Shown here: positions 28,470-33,860 of the stretch, piece by piece
Layout: every line of letters starts with the position of its first letter
Numbering within the stretch: the first letter of the stretch is position 1
NCBI GenBank assembly: GCA_964397995.1
Contig: CAYNLG010000009.1
Span: 1,089-65,088 of the forward strand
Length of the DNA: 64,000 nucleotides
Direction: 5' to 3'
Origin: an uncultured Anaerolineales bacterium
GTDB taxonomy: Bacteria; Planctomycetota; Phycisphaerae; FEN-1346
Translations under genes and position numbers: made by a program
The notes under the pieces: generated by a model
The model's input: the letters and a program-made list of their open reading frames with translations, nothing else
Told to the model about the DNA's origin: nothing
Database searches by the model: none

Positions 28470-31400
28470 TCACGCCTTGCGCCCGCAGCACTTCTTGTAC
28501 TTCTTGCCGCTGCCGCACGGGCACGGGTCGTTGCGTCCGACCTTCGGCGTGTCGCGGACGATGGTCTGGACGGCCTGGGGCTCGGCCTGGGTGTCGGCCT
28601 GGGCGGCCTGTTCGGCGGCAGCGGCCTTGGCCTCGCCCCGGCGCTGGGCGGCATCGTAGACGCTTTCGGCGATGGCGTGGCTGGCCGACTGGCCGGCGTA
28701 GATGCCCGCCAGCGCCGCCCGCCGCACCTCCCGCGTCTGGAAGAAGACGCCGACGAACGTGTCTCGCACGCCCGCAAGCATCCGCTGGAAGTTCTCCAGC
28801 CCCTCGCGCTTGAACTCGATCAGCGGATCCTGCTGTGCGTAGCCGCGCAGCCCCACGCTCTCGCGGAGCCGGTCCATGACGAGCAGGTGGTCCTTCCAGG
28901 CGGTGTCGTGGGTCTGAAGGAGCCAGAACCGCTCGAACTCCGTCATCGGCGCCCGCCGCACCTGACGCACCCGACGGTACAGGAACCCCGCGAAGGCCTC
29001 CGCCGCCGACCCCTCCGCTCCTTCGGCCAGCGTGCCTCGCACTTCCGCAAAGAGCGGGGGCAGGGCCGCCGGGGGCGTCTCCAAGCCCAGGAACCCCGTC
29101 ATCCACTCGGCCAGCGGTTGCCACGCCTCCGGCGCCTCCGCCTCCGCCTCCGGCACCAGGTCCGTCACGTGCGTCCGGATGGTCCGGCTCAGCCGCTGCT
29201 CGGATTCGCACGCGCGGGCCTCGCGCATCAGGAGCTCCAGCACCGCGTCGCGGTCCTGGCCGCGCAGCGCCGCCGGGTCGATGCGCGTGACGAACCGCCG
29301 CGACGCCCATGCCGCCAGGCCCTCCCAGTCGGGCTCCGGGTGGTCCCTGCGCCCGGCCAGGAACCGGCCGACGGCGTTCTCGATCGGGTAGGCGAACTCT
29401 TTCTCGTCGTAGAGCTGGCGGACGCGGCTGACGATGGTGTGCAGGACGGCCTCGCGGCCGCGTGTGCTGTCGAAGGCGTCGGCCGCGAGGTCGATCCGGA
29501 ACGTCCGGCTCGCCCACGCCGCCAGCGCGCCCTTCCAGTGGTCCGGGTCGAGCAGGGGCAGGGCCTCCGCACAGTCGACGCTCGCGATGACCTCCTCGGC
29601 GGCCCCGATGACCCGGTCGGCCAGGCGCCCGCGGTCGCGGAGCGTCAGCGTCCGTTCCGTCACCGTCAGGCCCAGGCGCGTCCGCGCCCATGCCCCCAGC
29701 CCTGCCAGGTCGAACGCGACGAACTCGTCCAGCGCCTCGTCCACGAGGTCCATGGCCCACGTCCGGGCGTCCCCCCGCGGCACGCGCGTGTCGATGGCCC
29801 GGTGAACGGCCTTCCGGATGCCCTCGACGTCGCGGTGGTCGAACCGCCCGAGCTGGACCGAGAGCCCCAGGTGACCGCGCAGCCACGTCTCCAGCCCCCC
29901 GCGGTCGACCCGCAGGATCGGCCGCCCGTCGGCCGTGGTCTTGCCGGTACGGTGGCGGTAGCGGGGCAGGGCGCGGCCGAAGCGGTCGCGGGCCCAGGCC
30001 CGGGCGTCGCCCTCGATGCCGGCGTCGACGGCGGCCGCGATGGCCTCGCGAACCTGCCCCCGCGTCGCCGCCTGGCGCTCCAGGTTCTTCAGCTCCACCC
30101 CCAGGTGCGCCCAGCACCACTCCGTGATCCGCCGGTGGTCCAGCGCGACGAACCGGTCGAAGGCCGCGTCGGCTTCACCGCGCGCCCACGCGCGGGCGTC
30201 GCCCTCGAAGCGTTCGGTCGCCCACGCGTGCAGGGCCGACCGGACCGCCTCCGGGCCGCCCTCGACGAGCGAGGCGTCCAGGTCCTCGCCGAACGCGTCC
30301 CGCAGCCGCCGCAGCAGGCCCTTGCCGTCCAGCTCGGCCAGGGGGTTGCCCCGCGAGTCCGTCCGCTTCGAGGGCAGCGTGTAGGCCTCCAGGGCCTCGT
30401 CGATGCGCCGGGCCGCCCAGTCGGCGGCCGTGTCGCGCACGTCGCGGTCGATGGCCTCGTCCAAGCGGGCGCGAATCTCGTCCCGGTTGAGCGCGTGCAG
30501 GCCCAGCAGCCGCTGAGGAACCCCGAACTTCTCGGCCGCCCACGCCGCGACGCCTTCCAGGCGGAACGCCATCAGGCCCTCGCCGCCCGGCGCCTCGTCC
30601 GGCACCAGGAACGACTCGAACCGGTCGTCGATCCGAAGGGCCGCGTCCTCCCGCTCGTCGCCCTTCAGGTGCCGCCGCGCCGCCTGGTGCAGCTTCTGAA
30701 GCACCTCGTCGGCCGTGGCCGCCTCCAGCCGGTCTGGCGCGACGGGCAGACCGAGCTCGTCCTGGGCCCAGCGGGCCAGGGCGGTCGTATCGACCTCCGC
30801 CCCGGACAGGGTCTCGGCTTCCGCGGTCTCCGCGACGAACTCGTCCAGGGTCTCCTCGACGGTCTCGCGGACGGCGCGGCGGGCCTCGTCCTTGAGGTAC
30901 GCCTCCAGGTCGGCCGCCTCCATCTCCGCCCGGCGGGCGAGCGCCTCGACCGCCACGTCCACGTGCAGGGCCTGGGCGGCCCAGGCGGCCAGCTGCTTCA
31001 GGCCGAACTGCGGGTCCAGGTGCGCGTCGCAGGCGTCCTCGATGCTCGCCGTCAGCAGGTCCCAGACGAAGTCCCGCAGGTCCGGGCTCGTGAGGATGGT
31101 CTGGCGGCGGCCGTAGAAGACGGTCCGCTGCTCATCCATCACCTCGTCATACTTGATGAGGTTCTTTCGGATGTCGAAGTTGCGTTCCTCGACCTTCTTC
31201 TGGGCCCGCTCGATACCCTTCGTCAGCCACGAGTGCTCCAGGGCGGCGCCCTGCTCCATCCCCAGCTTCTCGAGGGCCGCCCCCAGCCAGTCGGCCGCGA
31301 AGATCCGCATCAGGTCGTCTTCCAGCGACAGGAAGAACCGGCCGGAGCCGGGGTCGCCCTGGCGCCCCGCGCGGCCGCGAAGCTGGTTGTCGATGCGGCG

Positions 31401-33860
31401 GGCCTCGTGCCGCTCGGTGCCCACCACGTGCAGGCCGCACGGCGGGTCCGCGACGCATTCCGTGCGGCCCATCTTCGGGAACCGCGGGTCCAGCTTCGGC
31501 TTGAAACAGTGGGCGCAGTTCGTCTTCCGGTCGTACTCCGTGCAGCCCACGCAGCACTTGTGCCCGAAGTCGTCCGGCAGGTTCTGCCGGGCCAGGTTCC
31601 ACGGGCCGAAACACGACGGGTTCACCACGCCCGGCCCGAGCTTGATGTCGGTGCCGCGGCCGGCCATGTTCGTCGCGATGGTGACCTTGCCCTTGCGCGA
31701 CCCGCCCGGCCCGTCGAACTGCTCGCCGGCCTTGGCGACGATGGCGGCCTCGCGGCCGTGGTATCGGGCGTTGAGGACCGCGACCTTGCCCTCGGGGTCC
31801 ACGCTCTCCTTCTTGTACTTCCTGCGGAGCAGCTCGCCGAGCTCCTCCGAGACCTGGATGCTCGTCGTGCCCACCAGCACCGGCCGCCCGGGGTTCCGCT
31901 CCCAGGCGTAGTGCCAGATCTCGTCGATGACGGCGTCCTGCTTCTCGCCGAAGGTCCGGTAGATGACGTCGCCGTGGCCCTTGCGCGACAGGGGCCGGTG
32001 CGTCGGGATGCTGACGACCTCCAGCGTGTAGATCTTGTCGAACTCGATGGCCTCCGTCATGGCCGTGCCGGTCATGCCGGAGAGCTTGTCGTACATCCGG
32101 AAGAAGTTCTGGATGGTGATGGTCGCGAGGGTCTGCGTCTCTTCCTGGATGGGCAGGCCGTGCTTGGCCTCGACGGCCTGATGGAGGCCGTCGGACCACT
32201 GGCGGCCGGGCATGAGGCGGCCGGTGAACTCATCGACGATGATGACCTGCCGCTCGCGGACGACGTAGTGTTTGTCGCGGTGGTACAGGTGGTGGGCCCG
32301 GAGGGCCTGATCCACCAGGTGCTGCCACTCGTCGTCCAGGCCGACGAAGATCTGCCCGCCCGGCACCAGGCCGCCCGCCGCCAGCAGCTCGCTGACGCGC
32401 CGCACGCCGCGGTCCGTCAGCGGCGCCGACCGCTCCTTCTCCTTGACCTCGAAGTCGCGGCCGGGCTGAAGTTGGCGCGCGACCTTGTCGGCCTCGACGA
32501 TGTTCTCGCCGGAGAAGGACCGCGTGGGGCCGGAGATGATGAGCGGGGTCCGGGCCTCGTCGATGAGGACGGAGTCGGCCTCGTCAACGATCGCGAAGGC
32601 CAGGTCGCCCTGGACCTGCAGGGCGGCGCTGTCCTTCATGTTGTCGCGCAGGTAGTCGAAGCCGAACTCGTTGTTCGTCCCGTAGGTGATGTCGCAGGCG
32701 TACTCCTTCTGCCGCGCCTCCGGGTCCATCCCCGCCTGGATGGCGCCGACCGTCATGCCGAGGCGCCGGAAAACGGGCTCGTTCCACGAGCGGCCCGTCT
32801 CGACGAGGTAGTCGTTGGTCGAGACGACGTGGACCGGCCGCCCGCTGAGCGCGTTCAGGTACGCCGCCAGCGACGCCACCAGCGTTTTGCCCTCGCCGGT
32901 GACCATCTCGGCGATCTTGCCCTCGTTCAGGACCAGGGCGCCGATGAGCTGTACGTCGTACGGCCGCATGCTGTACAGGCCGTGGAGCTCGATGCGTTTG
33001 CCCGTCTCGGGGTCGACGAGGCTCTCTTCGCCGCGCATCGCCTTGCGGATGCGCTGCTGGACCTCGGGGTGGTAGTCGGGAGGGGCCTCGGCGTGGTCGA
33101 GCCAGACGCAGCGTTTGGCGGCCTCGCGGGCGGCGGCGAAGGCCTCCGGGACGAGGTCGTCGAGGGTCTCGGCGGGCTCGCGGTCGCGGCAGACCTCCAG
33201 GAGCCGCTCGCGGTGCCGCGCCACCAGCGCCCGCGCCGCCTGCCGCGCCAGGCTCCCGTGCTTCTCCTCGGCGGCCATGGCCTCGCGCAGGCCCTCCTCG
33301 GTGCCGCCCCCCGCCTCCGGCAGGAGCCGCCTCAGCAGGGCGACGGCGGCGTCGAGGTCCGCCCCGCCGGGCGGCTCGCGCCGGTACTCGAGGTCCTGGA
33401 GGGCGACCTGGTCCTTCGCGGCGTCCAGGCATGCCGCCTCCAGGCGCTCCAGGTAGGCCACGACGCTGGCGCGGTCGCCGAGGCGCTCGGCCAGCCGCTT
33501 TGCCCAGTCCGCCCGGGCCGCCTCCGGCAGGGCCGTGAGCCCCTCGGCCAGGCGCGCCGTGACGTCGGCCCCGCCGCCCAGCGCTTCGGCCGCGGCGCGA
33601 ATGCGGGGCAGGGCGGTAGGAGGCGAGAGCCGCATCAGGCCCGGCACCAGGGCGCGGGCGGCCGCCCCGTCGGTCAGCCGCAGGCGGAACTCGGCCGTCT
33701 TGGCCTTCAGGTCGTCGTCCGAGAGGGCCTCGAACGCCGGTTCCAGCGCCGCCGCCCGCTCGATCCGCTCCCGGTACCCGCGCACCAGCCGCTCGTTCCG
33801 CGACCCGAACAGGGCGCGGGCGGCCTTGCCGACGAGATCGCCGAGAACGTCCAGTGCCAT
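28470..33860 (-). CDS. secA: preprotein translocase SecA, hyper-expanded (1796 aa)
   Basis: SecA N-terminus ([13 protein letters not shown]), NBD1 Walker [18 protein letters not shown]2 ([12 protein letters not shown] ... [46 protein letters not shown]), both HSD halves ([21 protein letters not shown] ... [40 protein letters not shown]), and the C-terminal Zn finger [13 protein letters not shown]. Large insertions account for the extra length. Confidence 0.9.

What the first reader, a model, noticed from the sequence alone, without database searches (positions are those of the whole stretch)
28470..33860. Hyper-expanded SecA: repeat-built helical-wing region, Cys-rich insertion in NBD2, and two NBD1 insertions
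All SecA core motifs are present, but the protein is about twice the usual length.
1. A ~170-aa insertion follows the N-terminal helix, and a ~35-aa insertion lies before the MRPYDVQL block.
2. The NBD2 VAR subdomain is replaced by an 8-Cys segment ([59 protein letters not shown]), possibly a second zinc site.
3. Between the two halves of the helical scaffold, where the ~90-aa helical wing domain normally sits, there are about 800 aa of degenerate tandem repeats. These have a recurring W-A-x(2,3)-[RK]-F-G/L-x-[VL] core ([97 protein letters not shown]).
Basis: seen in the sequence. Interest (0 to 1): 0.65.

Follow-up and report, generated by a model that had tools for sequence, protein, structure and literature searches.

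The report
Giant SecA with ten wing-domain copies
This is the cell's ordinary protein-export motor SecA at twice its normal size, mainly because its small 'wing' domain is copied ten times in a row; most of its oddities are shared by its whole bacterial group, and about 540 residues are seen only in this genome.

Summary
The 1796-aa ORF (window 28470-33860, minus strand) is a complete housekeeping SecA. All motor, clamp, scaffold and C-terminal zinc-motif elements are present, and efp lies directly upstream as in a relative. Comparison with 119 homologs splits them in two.

Shared with relatives:
- A five-unit wing of about 380 aa in all Planctomycetota sampled.
- An 8-Cys segment replacing the NBD2 variable subdomain, with the eight Cys invariant in the Phycisphaerae-type clade.
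- A 44-aa insert before MRPYDVQL in the same clade.

Found only here:
- A 165-aa helical insert after the N-terminal helix.
- A contiguous block of about 372 aa in the wing.
No counterpart appeared in 1.84 billion representative proteins, a genome collection or a metagenome collection.

The wing repeat is a copy of the canonical helical wing domain (unit U3 vs canonical profile, hhalign 96.7%, E 3e-10). Relatives have five copies and this protein ten. The inserted units match the ancestral units (about 96%) but share no DNA similarity, and GC3 equals the core, so this is old intragenic duplication and not an assembly artefact. Zinc binding and any function of the expansions remain untested. 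Verdict: an extreme new variant of a known protein, of moderate interest.

The parts
28470..33860 (-). Complete secA coding sequence, 1796 aa plus stop codon.
   Evidence: ORF listing. Pfam and NCBIfam SecA hits above their cut-offs. 100% identical to database protein P0001, from an NCBI contig of 67.9 kb.
33636..33860 (-). aa 1-75: N-terminal helices of NBD1 (FGSRNERL motif).
   Evidence: Aligns to E. coli SecA residues 10-71 of chain 6s0k_h. Conserved in all homologs.
33153..33635 (-). aa 76-236: 165-aa Ala/Leu/Arg-rich insert specific to this protein, at an insertion hot spot between 'KTAEFRxR' and 'LVPEAFA'.
   Evidence: Anchor distance 219 vs 54 in relatives; some subclades have 28-34 aa at the same site. 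No similarity to the homologs, to the rest of the protein or to the wing units. No hit in the metagenome scan. Only sub-threshold, mutually unrelated hits: HrpJ E 0.002 and CarH E 0.001. GC3 0.96, like the core.
32979..33113 (-). aa 250-294: clade-wide insert of about 44 aa before the MRPYDVQL block (…[45 protein letters not shown]).
   Evidence: Anchor distance 61 in the Phycisphaerae-type clade vs 17 in the other Planctomycetota sampled. The sequence is conserved.
31632..32978 (-). aa 295-743: motor core, comprising NBD1 with Walker A (GEGKT) and Walker B (VDEADS), the PPXD and the first part of NBD2 (NMAGRGTDI).
   Evidence: Aligns to E. coli SecA over 449 residues at 425 bits. Pfam SecA_DEAD, SecA_PP_bind and P-loop_SecA.
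31437..31631 (-). aa 744-808: clade-wide 8-Cys module in place of the NBD2 variable (VAR) subdomain. Pattern: C-x18-CC-x2-C-x8-C-x2-C-x16-C-x5-C.
   Evidence: The eight Cys are present in all 64 Phycisphaerae-type sequences scored; five sequences carry one additional Cys. Isosphaeraceae-type relatives have a Cys-free, E. coli-like 59-aa VAR. 28 of 71 alignment columns are invariant. No Pfam or NCBIfam domain matches. The isolated AlphaFold model had pLDDT 42 and was not used.
31020..31436 (-). aa 809-947: end of NBD2 (arginine-finger region [10 protein letters not shown]) and the first long helix of the helical scaffold domain.
   Evidence: Aligns to E. coli 556-700 of chain 6s0k_h at 158 bits. 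Pfam SecA_SW profile positions 1-117 cover aa 873-995.
30831..31019 (-). aa 948-1010: wing unit a, the ancestral unit U1.
   Evidence: U1 profile hit at 42.5 bits, E 4e-15. AlphaFold pLDDT 80-89 with a helix / short helix / long helix pattern.
29715..30830 (-). aa 1011-1382: wing block specific to this protein. It holds five extra wing-domain-like units: b 1019-1094, c 1095-1164, d 1170-1238, e 1239-1302, f 1312-1382. It sits where relatives have a short acidic linker between U1 and U2.
   Evidence: It appears as one contiguous gap in all relatives. Unit profiles hit at E 2.5e-9 to 3e-5. Shuffle test 0/500. The b-f profile vs U1/U2/U4 gives 96% by hhalign, with controls at or below 3.5%. No hits in 1.84 billion representative proteins, genome contigs or metagenome contigs. 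No DNA repeats longer than 38 nt. GC3 0.95.
28983..29714 (-). aa 1383-1626: ancestral wing units U2, U3, U4 and U5.
   Evidence: Orthologous alignment to all relatives. Profile hits of 31.7, 44.7, 58.4 and 15.5 bits. AlphaFold pLDDT 86-95 over model residues 481-690, about aa 1425-1634. U3 vs the canonical wing-domain profile: 96.7%, E 3e-10.
28731..28982 (-). aa 1627-1710: second half of the helical scaffold, with the two-helix-finger / IRA1 region ([21 protein letters not shown]).
   Evidence: Aligns to E. coli 750-827 of chain 6s0k_h. It is the second SecA_SW stretch in Pfam.
28470..28730 (-). aa 1711-1796: C-terminal tail ending in the SEC-C metal-binding motif [14 protein letters not shown] (aa 1776-1794).
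   Evidence: Pfam SEC-C, E 6e-10. PDB hits to SecA zinc-domain peptides 1sx0, 1tm6 and 1ozb.

Best explanation
This is the orthologous, housekeeping SecA translocation ATPase of an uncultured Phycisphaerae-type planctomycete. It should work as SecA does everywhere: ATP binding and hydrolysis at the NBD1/NBD2 interface drive the clamp and the two-helix finger, which push preproteins through SecYEG. All the extra length lies in surface modules grafted onto that core.

(1) The wing (shown). The helical wing domain, normally one module of about 83 aa set into the scaffold, has been multiplied by tandem duplication within the gene. Five copies (U1-U5) are ancestral to the Planctomycetota sampled. 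In this lineage five more (b-f) were added at the U1/U2 linker, giving ten consecutive modules, each a helix, a short helix and a long helix. Unit b is most like U2, and unit f ends with the U1-specific tail. That fits one or more rounds of duplication of a U1-U2 block, followed by long divergence (inferred).

(2) The Cys module (shown as a pattern, function inferred). In the Phycisphaerae-type clade the NBD2 variable subdomain is replaced by an invariant 8-Cys module. Two CxxC knuckles lie 6-8 residues apart, and two outer Cys pairs flank them. The most likely reading is two Zn(Cys)4 staples that hold a small lid on NBD2, at the position where the E. coli variable subdomain regulates ATPase activity and ADP release.

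(3) The N-terminal insert (shown as an insert, fold inferred). A 165-aa, probably helical insert occupies a loop of NBD1 that accepts 28-34 aa inserts in sister subclades.

Function of the wing array (inferred, low confidence). It forms an elongated helical arm next to the closed position of the PPXD clamp. That would enlarge the surface available for preprotein or partner binding without changing the motor. The five lineage-specific units are more degenerate than the ancestral five, so they may add little beyond length.
For: Identity:
- Pfam and the NCBIfam SecA equivalog score above their cut-offs; all SecA2 models score below theirs.
- PDB SecA hits reach E 2e-195.
- Walker A and B, the arginine-finger region, LRGYAQQDP and the C-terminal [14 protein letters not shown] can be read in the sequence.
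- efp lies directly upstream, as in relative L081.
- There is only one secA in the window.

Shared versus unique:
- Anchor distances over 119 homologs.
- The block alignment.
- Cys counts.

Repeat nature:
- The U1-U5 profiles cross-hit one another.
- A generic unit profile finds 5 copies in each of the six relatives scanned, and 7 copies (E<0.01) plus 3 weaker ones in the query.
- Shuffle controls give 0/500.

The unit is a wing domain:
- The U3 profile lands on the wing domain of every solved SecA.
- hhalign against a profile of 24 canonical wings gives U3 96.7% (E 3e-10), U2 79% and U4 63%.
- Reversed and column-shuffled controls reach at most 6.3%.
- The AlphaFold model shows the same three-element motif ten times.

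Old and genuine:
- There are no long DNA repeats.
- Units are 24-38% identical over the longer alignments of at least 45 residues.
- GC3 is 0.95-0.96 in the inserts and 0.92-1.00 elsewhere in the gene.

Literature:
- E. coli domain boundaries, and the PPXD closing onto the wing domain (PMC6620043).
- The role of the variable subdomain, known only from the title of Das et al. 2012 as cited there.
- The Planctomycetes SecA_SW 'rearrangement' (PMC4452313).
Against: - No function of any expansion was tested or could be.
- The ten-unit count rests partly on weak matches: units d and e score at or below 8.3 bits against the unit profiles, and pLDDT is 39-67 over model residues 141-340, about aa 1085-1284.
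- U1 and U5 alone do not match the canonical wing significantly (10% and below 1%).
- Zinc binding by the Cys module is unsupported by any domain model or by a usable structure. Iron-sulfur clusters or disulfides are not excluded.
- The query-specific inserts occur in a single contig from one metagenome-assembled genome, with no independent assembly and no read data.
- The protein-word searches with sub-fragments did not recover even the protein itself, so those two negative results carry little weight.
Confidence: 0.72

Rival explanations
1. The two query-specific blocks (aa 76-236 and 1011-1382) are selectively near-neutral. On this reading, runaway intragenic duplication and insertion are tolerated at permissive surface loops of an essential protein in a very GC-rich genome, and the blocks have no function of their own. 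The five-unit wing and the Cys module would still be functional traits of the clade.
For: The inserted units are more degenerate than the ancestral ones: profile scores run from below zero to 24 bits against 15.5-58 bits, the conserved Trp is lost in unit d, and model confidence is lower. Both sites vary in length among relatives: the linker gives anchor distances of 349-467, and the N-terminal hot spot takes 54, 82 or 88 aa. No other genome keeps these blocks.
Against: About 540 extra residues in one of the cell's most abundant essential proteins are costly. The reading frame and the host codon bias are fully maintained (GC3 0.95-0.96). The units keep the hydrophobic-core pattern and a predicted helical architecture. 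Unit b is modelled at pLDDT about 90 without any aligned homolog.
Confidence: 0.3
2. The extra length is an assembly or binning artefact: a chimeric join, or a mis-assembled repeat, in a contig from a metagenome-assembled genome.
For: The architecture is a singleton, seen in one protein cluster with one member on one contig. Nothing similar was found in any collection. No read data were available.
Against: Repeat mis-assembly yields near-identical copies. Here the longest DNA repeat is 38 nt at 71% identity, and units are only 24-38% identical over the longer alignments. Both blocks are in frame with flanks that align residue by residue to relatives. GC1, GC2 and GC3 match the rest of the gene. 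The inserted sequence has no donor in any database yet is homologous to this protein's own wing units, which a foreign chimera would not be.
Confidence: 0.05
3. It is an accessory SecA2-like paralog, specialised for a subset of substrates, and not the housekeeping SecA.
For: Planctomycetes are reported to encode secondary SecA_DEAD proteins (PMC4452313). Only 64 kb of the genome is visible, so a second secA cannot be excluded.
Against: The housekeeping equivalog models are passed (930 bits vs 814, and 865 vs 800). Every SecA2 model falls below its cut-off. The published secondary proteins lack the SecA_SW domain or keep only a fragment of it; this protein has both halves plus the SEC-C motif. 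The gene sits at the efp-secA locus, as the 1265-aa ortholog does in L081. Its closest relatives are annotated as the single SecA.
Confidence: 0.05
4. The Cys-rich NBD2 module binds an iron-sulfur cluster or forms regulatory disulfides, making it a redox sensor, and does not bind structural zinc.
For: There are eight invariant Cys in about 60 residues, including a CC pair. No zinc-finger model matches.
Against: The CxxC-x(6-8)-CxxC spacing, with proline- and glycine-rich knuckles, is typical of zinc knuckles (established knowledge). SecA already uses a Cys-rich zinc motif at its C-terminus. No cluster-assembly genes were seen near the gene, although only its three immediate neighbours were scanned.
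Confidence: 0.12

Closest known systems
Canonical bacterial SecA (E. coli SecA, 901 aa; PDB 2fsf, 6s0k)
   Same: It has the same domain order and all the same motifs: NBD1, PPXD, NBD2, scaffold, wing, two-helix finger / IRA1, and the C-terminal zinc motif. Identity is high across the motor.
   Different: The wing region is about 680 aa (10 units) instead of one module of about 83 aa. The anchor distance is 744 against 111-134. The variable subdomain is replaced by an 8-Cys module. NBD1 carries a 165-aa and a 44-aa insert.
Planctomycetota SecA with a split or 'rearranged' SecA_SW domain (Kamneva et al. 2015, PMC4452313; for example Singulisphaera and Tautonia SecA, about 1210 aa)
   Same: It shares the five ancestral wing units U1-U5, which align as orthologs. 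The Pfam SecA_SW hit is split into two distant stretches.
   Different: The paper reported only a domain 'rearrangement' and did not resolve it into tandem wing-domain copies. This protein has five further units, and none of the relatives whose wing could be measured has more than five units' worth of length.
Phycisphaerae-type SecA (P0002-P0067, 1190-1463 aa)
   Same: These are the closest relatives, 50-67% identical over the best local alignment. They share the 8-Cys module and the five-unit wing. The 44-aa NBD1 insert is shared by the closer subclade (P0002-P0060) and is absent from P0062-P0067. efp-secA synteny was seen in the one relative examined.
   Different: They lack aa 76-236 and aa 1011-1382 of the query.
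Large conserved inserts in SecA of thermophiles: 50 aa in Thermotogales/Aquificales and 76 aa in Thermales (Khadka & Gupta 2019, PMC7023208)
   Same: These are also lineage-specific, surface-exposed insertions in the ATPase domains of an otherwise canonical SecA. The 76-aa insert lies at the periphery of NBD2.
   Different: They are far smaller, and the paper does not describe them as repeats or as cysteine-rich. The inserts here are 165 and about 372 aa, and they come on top of a wing already about 260 aa longer than canonical.
E. coli SecA variable (VAR) subdomain of NBD2 (Das et al. 2012, cited in PMC6620043)
   Same: It occupies the same position, between the NMAGRGTDI strand and the GLHxxGTERHE helix.
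   Different: There is no sequence relationship. The module here has eight invariant Cys. Whether it regulates ADP release as VAR does is unknown.

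Membership tests
SecA (housekeeping preprotein translocase ATPase) | DEAD-like motor: NBD1 with Walker A (GEGKT) and Walker B (DEAD/VDE…), and NBD2 with the arginine-finger region | tested here: met
   Pfam SecA_DEAD at 2e-108 and P-loop_SecA at 1e-59. The motifs are readable at aa 322-326, 425-429 and 828-836.
SecA (housekeeping preprotein translocase ATPase) | Preprotein cross-linking domain inserted in NBD1 | tested here: met
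   Pfam SecA_PP_bind at 2e-34, aa 454-564.
SecA (housekeeping preprotein translocase ATPase) | Helical scaffold with the two-helix finger / IRA1, and a wing domain | tested here: met
   Pfam SecA_SW at 1e-54 in two stretches. E. coli aligns to aa 808-952 and 1627-1703. LRGYAQQDP is present.
SecA (housekeeping preprotein translocase ATPase) | Curated whole-protein score of the equivalog models | tested here: met
   NF009538 scores 930 bits vs cut-off 814. TIGR00963 scores 865.5 vs 800.
SecA (housekeeping preprotein translocase ATPase) | ATP-dependent translocation through SecYEG | not testable with these tools
   This needs biochemistry or genetics.
Accessory SecA2 | Score above the cut-off of any SecA2 model | tested here: not met
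   TIGR04397 scores 674 vs 1085. TIGR03714 scores 541 vs 930. NF012136 scores 518 vs 1100. TIGR04221 scores 509 vs 725.
Helical wing domain (HWD) of SecA, as the identity of the repeat unit | Sequence-profile homology of the unit to canonical wing domains | tested here: met
   hhalign gives U3 96.7% (E 3e-10), U2 79% and U4 63%. The b-f profile gives 47% directly, and 93-96% to U1-U4. Controls reach at most 6.3%. U1 and U5 alone are not significant against the canonical profile.
Helical wing domain (HWD) of SecA, as the identity of the repeat unit | The same three-dimensional fold as the wing domain in solved SecA structures | tested here: inconclusive
Zinc-knuckle / zinc-ribbon type metal site (for the 8-Cys NBD2 module) | Paired CxxC motifs with invariant Cys | tested here: met
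   The motif reads CC-x2-C-x(6-8)-C-x2-C plus four further invariant Cys, in all 64 Phycisphaerae-type sequences scored.
Zinc-knuckle / zinc-ribbon type metal site (for the 8-Cys NBD2 module) | Match to a curated zinc-binding domain model, or a confident fold | tested here: not met
   No Pfam hit at E up to 10. The only NCBIfam hit is an irrelevant one at E 0.35. The AlphaFold model of the module alone has pLDDT 42.
Zinc-knuckle / zinc-ribbon type metal site (for the 8-Cys NBD2 module) | Bound metal | not testable with these tools
   This needs ICP-MS, a PAR assay or X-ray absorption on purified protein.

The most novel reading that the evidence does not exclude
Planctomycete SecA has turned two peripheral parts of the motor into new functional organs. 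First, the multiplied wing domains would form a built-in holdase or docking arm that binds unfolded giant preproteins or a partner, taking over work done elsewhere by separate chaperones; this lineage would have doubled it again. Second, the invariant 8-Cys module would be a double-metal (zinc or redox-active) switch that replaces the variable subdomain as regulator of ADP release. Its tip would face the membrane, as suggested by relatives that carry a two-helix hydrophobic hairpin inserted exactly between its two knuckles.
Probability: 0.15. Interest if true: 0.7.

Novelty: new variant of a known kind. Interest (0 to 1): 0.45.

Why it matters
SecA is one of the best-studied molecular machines, yet nearly all structural and mechanistic work uses proteins of 800-1000 aa with a single wing domain. 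This analysis shows three things.

- A whole phylum carries a five-fold tandem array of that domain. This was previously reported only as an unexplained 'rearrangement'.
- One lineage has pushed the array to ten copies.
- A large clade has replaced the ATPase-regulating variable subdomain with an invariant eight-cysteine module.

These are natural experiments on which parts of SecA tolerate change and which parts use it. They would give testable handles on what the wing domain and the variable subdomain actually do. The practical value is smaller: annotators should expect SecA proteins of 1200-1800 aa in Planctomycetota and should not treat them as fusions or errors.

Tried and rejected
- DNA-level repeats and tandem-repeat finder: only short GC-rich matches, so there was no recent duplication.
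- Protein-word searches with the wing block and the Cys module returned nothing, not even the source protein. I treated these as tool-sensitivity failures and not as evidence.
- Looking up P0001 on its contig returned 'not on record', so the source sample and read data could not be reached.
- The genome scan with the full protein was swamped by generic SecAs through the conserved patterns and gave only one Phycisphaerae relative. Those loci were then reused to build the canonical wing profile.
- The first alignment for structure prediction (fragment plus full-length homologs) mis-aligned and was discarded.
- Foldseek of the wing model against the PDB gave only generic alpha-solenoid noise, E above 0.08.
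- AlphaFold on the isolated Cys module gave pLDDT 42. The model was not used, and no fold search was run on it.
- A weak HrpJ (type III secretion gatekeeper) Pfam hit on the N-insert was rejected. It is below the cut-off, and the PDB search instead gave an unrelated CarH match of similar weakness, so both are taken as compositional.
- The N-insert as a diverged wing unit was rejected: at most 2.2% by hhalign.
- Intein or mobile element was rejected: no such domain appears in Pfam or NCBIfam, and the block is homologous to the protein's own wing units.
- Self-BLAST of the wing region found no internal hits, because the units are too diverged for pairwise search.

Full report
THE OBJECT. A single ORF of 1796 aa occupies window 28470-33860 on the minus strand. 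Pfam finds SecA_DEAD, SecA_PP_bind, P-loop_SecA, SecA_SW (in two stretches) and the C-terminal SEC-C motif. The NCBIfam housekeeping SecA equivalog models are passed (930 bits vs 814; 865 vs 800), while every SecA2 model falls below its cut-off. Against solved structures the best match is E. coli SecA (E 2e-195). The alignment breaks into four pieces, query 14-75, 295-743, 808-952 and 1627-1703, leaving three gaps. Walker A and B, the arginine-finger region, LRGYAQQDP of the two-helix finger and [14 protein letters not shown] are all readable. The gene directly upstream is efp, and a prepilin peptidase follows on the other strand. The 1265-aa ortholog P0005 on contig L081 also has efp just upstream, so this is the orthologous housekeeping locus. 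No second secA lies in the window.

SHARED VERSUS UNIQUE. The closest 119 database proteins are SecAs of Phycisphaerae and other Planctomycetota, 1111-1463 aa long. The query itself is present as P0001, a one-member cluster from one NCBI contig of 67.9 kb. I measured distances between eight conserved anchor motifs in all of them. Canonical SecAs taken from 76 loci of many phyla are 876-949 aa, with a wing anchor distance of 111-134.

- Wing: the Planctomycetota relatives have 349-467, mostly about 380-400, including Isosphaeraceae, Singulisphaera and Tautonia. A wing longer by about 260 aa is therefore shared by all the Planctomycetota sampled. This agrees with a 2015 report that all Planctomycetes except Kuenenia show a 'rearrangement' of SecA_SW (PMC4452313).
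- Cys segment: the segment between MAGRGTDI and GLHxxGT is 67-69 aa with the eight Cys present in all 64 Phycisphaerae-type sequences scored (five carry one additional Cys). It is a Cys-free, E. coli-like 59 aa in the Isosphaeraceae-type sequences.
- NBD1 insert: the 44-aa insert before MRPYDVQL is likewise clade-wide (61 vs 17).
- Query-specific: only two features belong to the query alone. One is 165 aa after the N-terminal helix (219 vs 54; some subclades have 82-88). The other is about 360 extra residues in the wing (744 vs about 390). Together with small indels these account for the 549-aa excess over P0002.

THE WING BLOCK. A structure-aware alignment shows the extra wing residues as one contiguous block, where relatives have a short acidic linker between the first and second repeats. 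Read against the sequence, the block runs from E1011, just after '…TLDEFVA', to A1382, the end of a second '…ALDEFVA'. The same motif at both borders is the footprint expected of tandem duplication.

REPEATS. I cut the relatives' wing into five units (U1-U5) and built a profile from each.
- The profiles cross-hit one another, for example U2 on the U4 position at E 1e-10.
- They also hit four further places inside the query block: 1022-1069 (E 2.5e-9), 1099-1160 (3e-6), 1241-1283 (2e-4) and 1317-1384 (3e-5).
- A generic unit profile finds exactly five copies in each of six relatives from both clades. In the query it finds seven at E<0.01 plus three weaker ones.
- Against 500 composition-matched shuffles of the block, the real sequence scores a summed 51.4 bits vs a maximum of 12.9. 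The U1-specific third helix is found again at 1362-1381 at 11.4 bits.
- Unit b scores best with U2, and unit f with U1. I read this (inference) as duplication of a U1-U2 block followed by further copying.
- The copies are old. The longest DNA repeats in the gene are 25-38 nt at about 70-88% identity. Units are 24-38% identical over the longer alignments of at least 45 residues.
- Codon-position GC in both query-specific blocks (GC3 0.95-0.96) equals that of the conserved core, so they have long been read in this frame in this genome.

WHAT THE UNIT IS.
- A U3 profile searched against all PDB sequences lands on the helical wing domain of every solved SecA (E. coli 693-744, B. subtilis 651-703), though only at E 0.07-0.6.
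- I then built a profile of 24 canonical wing domains from the fetched loci and compared profiles. U3 matches at 96.7% probability (E 3e-10, 52 columns, including the shared …LY..KE… motif), U2 at 79%, U4 at 63%, U1 at 10% and U5 below 1%.
- The profile of the five inserted units matches U1, U2 and U4 at about 96%, U3 at 93%, and the canonical wing at 47%.
- Reversed or column-shuffled controls never exceed 6.3%.
- An AlphaFold model of aa 945-1635 (mean pLDDT 74) repeats one motif ten times: a helix of 12-14 residues, a helix of 4-6 residues and a long helix. Confidence is 80-95 for U1, for unit b (which has no aligned homologs) and for U2-U5. It is 39-67 across units c and d and the start of e.
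- Conclusion: by sequence the wing is a tandem array of wing-domain copies. The structural confirmation is only suggestive.

UNIQUENESS OF THE QUERY-SPECIFIC BLOCKS. The wing block has no hit at E up to 0.001 in an exhaustive HMMER scan of 1.84 billion representative proteins. It has none in the GTDB species-representative genomes and none in JGI metagenome contigs. The N-insert has none in the metagenomes and none among the homologs or within the protein itself. Its only database matches are a sub-threshold HrpJ hit (E 0.002, 18.8 bits vs cut-off 25) and an unrelated Thermus CarH hit (E 0.001). I regard both as compositional. Two word-index searches with fragments failed even to retrieve the source protein and are discounted.

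THE CYS MODULE. The pattern is C-x18-CC-x2-C-x(6-8)-C-x2-C-x16-C-x5-C, and 28 of 71 alignment columns are invariant. Two CxxC knuckles only 6-8 residues apart, flanked by two further Cys pairs near the entry and exit of the insertion, suggest two nested Zn(Cys)4 sites. This is inference from established zinc-knuckle patterns. No curated domain matches, and the isolated-module model was unusable (pLDDT 42). The module sits where E. coli has the variable subdomain. Das et al. 2012, by its title as cited in PMC6620043, links that subdomain to regulation of ATPase activity and ADP release.

MECHANISM.
- Shown: a complete SecA motor with peripheral additions; a wing built by intragenic tandem duplication (five ancient copies and five lineage-specific ones); and a clade-wide Cys8 replacement of the variable subdomain.
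- Inferred: the motor works canonically. In E. coli the PPXD clamp swings between a closed position near the wing and an open position near NBD2 (PMC6620043). The array would therefore extend as a helical arm beside the closed clamp and enlarge a binding surface, and the Cys module would be a metal-stapled lid on NBD2.
- A serious alternative for the query-specific half is that it is tolerated, near-neutral growth at permissive loops. The extra units are visibly more degenerate than the ancestral five.
- An artefact is unlikely, because mis-assembly gives identical copies or foreign sequence. Here the copies are diverged, in frame, host-like in composition and homologous to the protein's own units.

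COMPARISON AND NOVELTY. The large lineage-specific SecA inserts described by Khadka & Gupta are 50 and 76 aa (PMC7023208). The planctomycete SecA_SW anomaly was noted but not resolved. I found no paper on SecA of Phycisphaerae beyond a passing mention. The protein is a member of the SecA family on every testable criterion. It is not a new kind of system. Rating: new variant of a known kind, interest 0.45.

Noticed in passing
Relatives P0044, P0046 and P0059 (NBD2 Cys module, between 'EYDGGE' and 'PCAHC'): Three protein clusters carry an extra 67-71 aa exactly between the two CxxC knuckles of the Cys module. The insert has two strongly hydrophobic segments (19-residue Kyte-Doolittle peaks of 1.95-2.41, against a maximum of -0.08 in P0002). 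That is a predicted two-helix membrane hairpin inside SecA's NBD2, possibly a permanently membrane-anchored SecA.
   Followed up: partly
Relatives P0015, P0016, P0017, P0021, P0026, P0036, P0042, P0043, P0045, P0046 and P0052: A subclade has about 137 further residues at the [11 protein letters not shown] site (anchor distance 197-202 instead of 61). The segment is Trp-rich and shows no obvious relation to the wing units.
   Followed up: no
Window 33153-33635 (aa 76-236) and the same site in P0006, P0009, P0013 and P0057: The loop between 'KTAEFRxR' and 'LLPEAFA' is a recurrent insertion hot spot. Sister subclades hold 28-34 aa there, and the query holds 165 aa. The hexapeptide AARALV occurs at aa 66-71, just before the insert, and again inside it at aa 207-212, with different codons in the two copies.
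   Followed up: partly
Window 28065-33965, plus strand: A 1966-aa open frame runs antisense across the whole of secA, and several other ORFs of more than 250 aa overlap it. This is the usual stop-codon scarcity of 72% GC DNA and not a gene.
   Followed up: no
   Followed up: no
Window aa 1162-1176 and 1302-1318 (about nt 30333-30377 and 29907-29957): The AlphaFold model places two short beta-hairpins between units c/d and e/f of the inserted block (…[15 protein letters not shown]… and …[17 protein letters not shown]…). They have no counterpart in the ancestral units, and confidence there is low to moderate.
   Followed up: no
Relative P0059, C-terminal scaffold region: The two-helix-finger region is replaced by an aberrant stretch (…HEMDRLRSGTGSGLWVERRGRREFGQGMVRGQQVQPILLFKQEGL…). 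This looks like a local frameshift or sequencing error in that contig.
   Followed up: no
Window 27038-28423, minus strand (downstream neighbour): The ORF just downstream of secA encodes a protein with a signal-peptide-like start (MRRKRRVRMAWLVPALLVLAGALPCAAAQ…) and an HELTH motif. It has no Pfam match. It may be an uncharacterised secreted metalloprotease-like protein.
   Followed up: no
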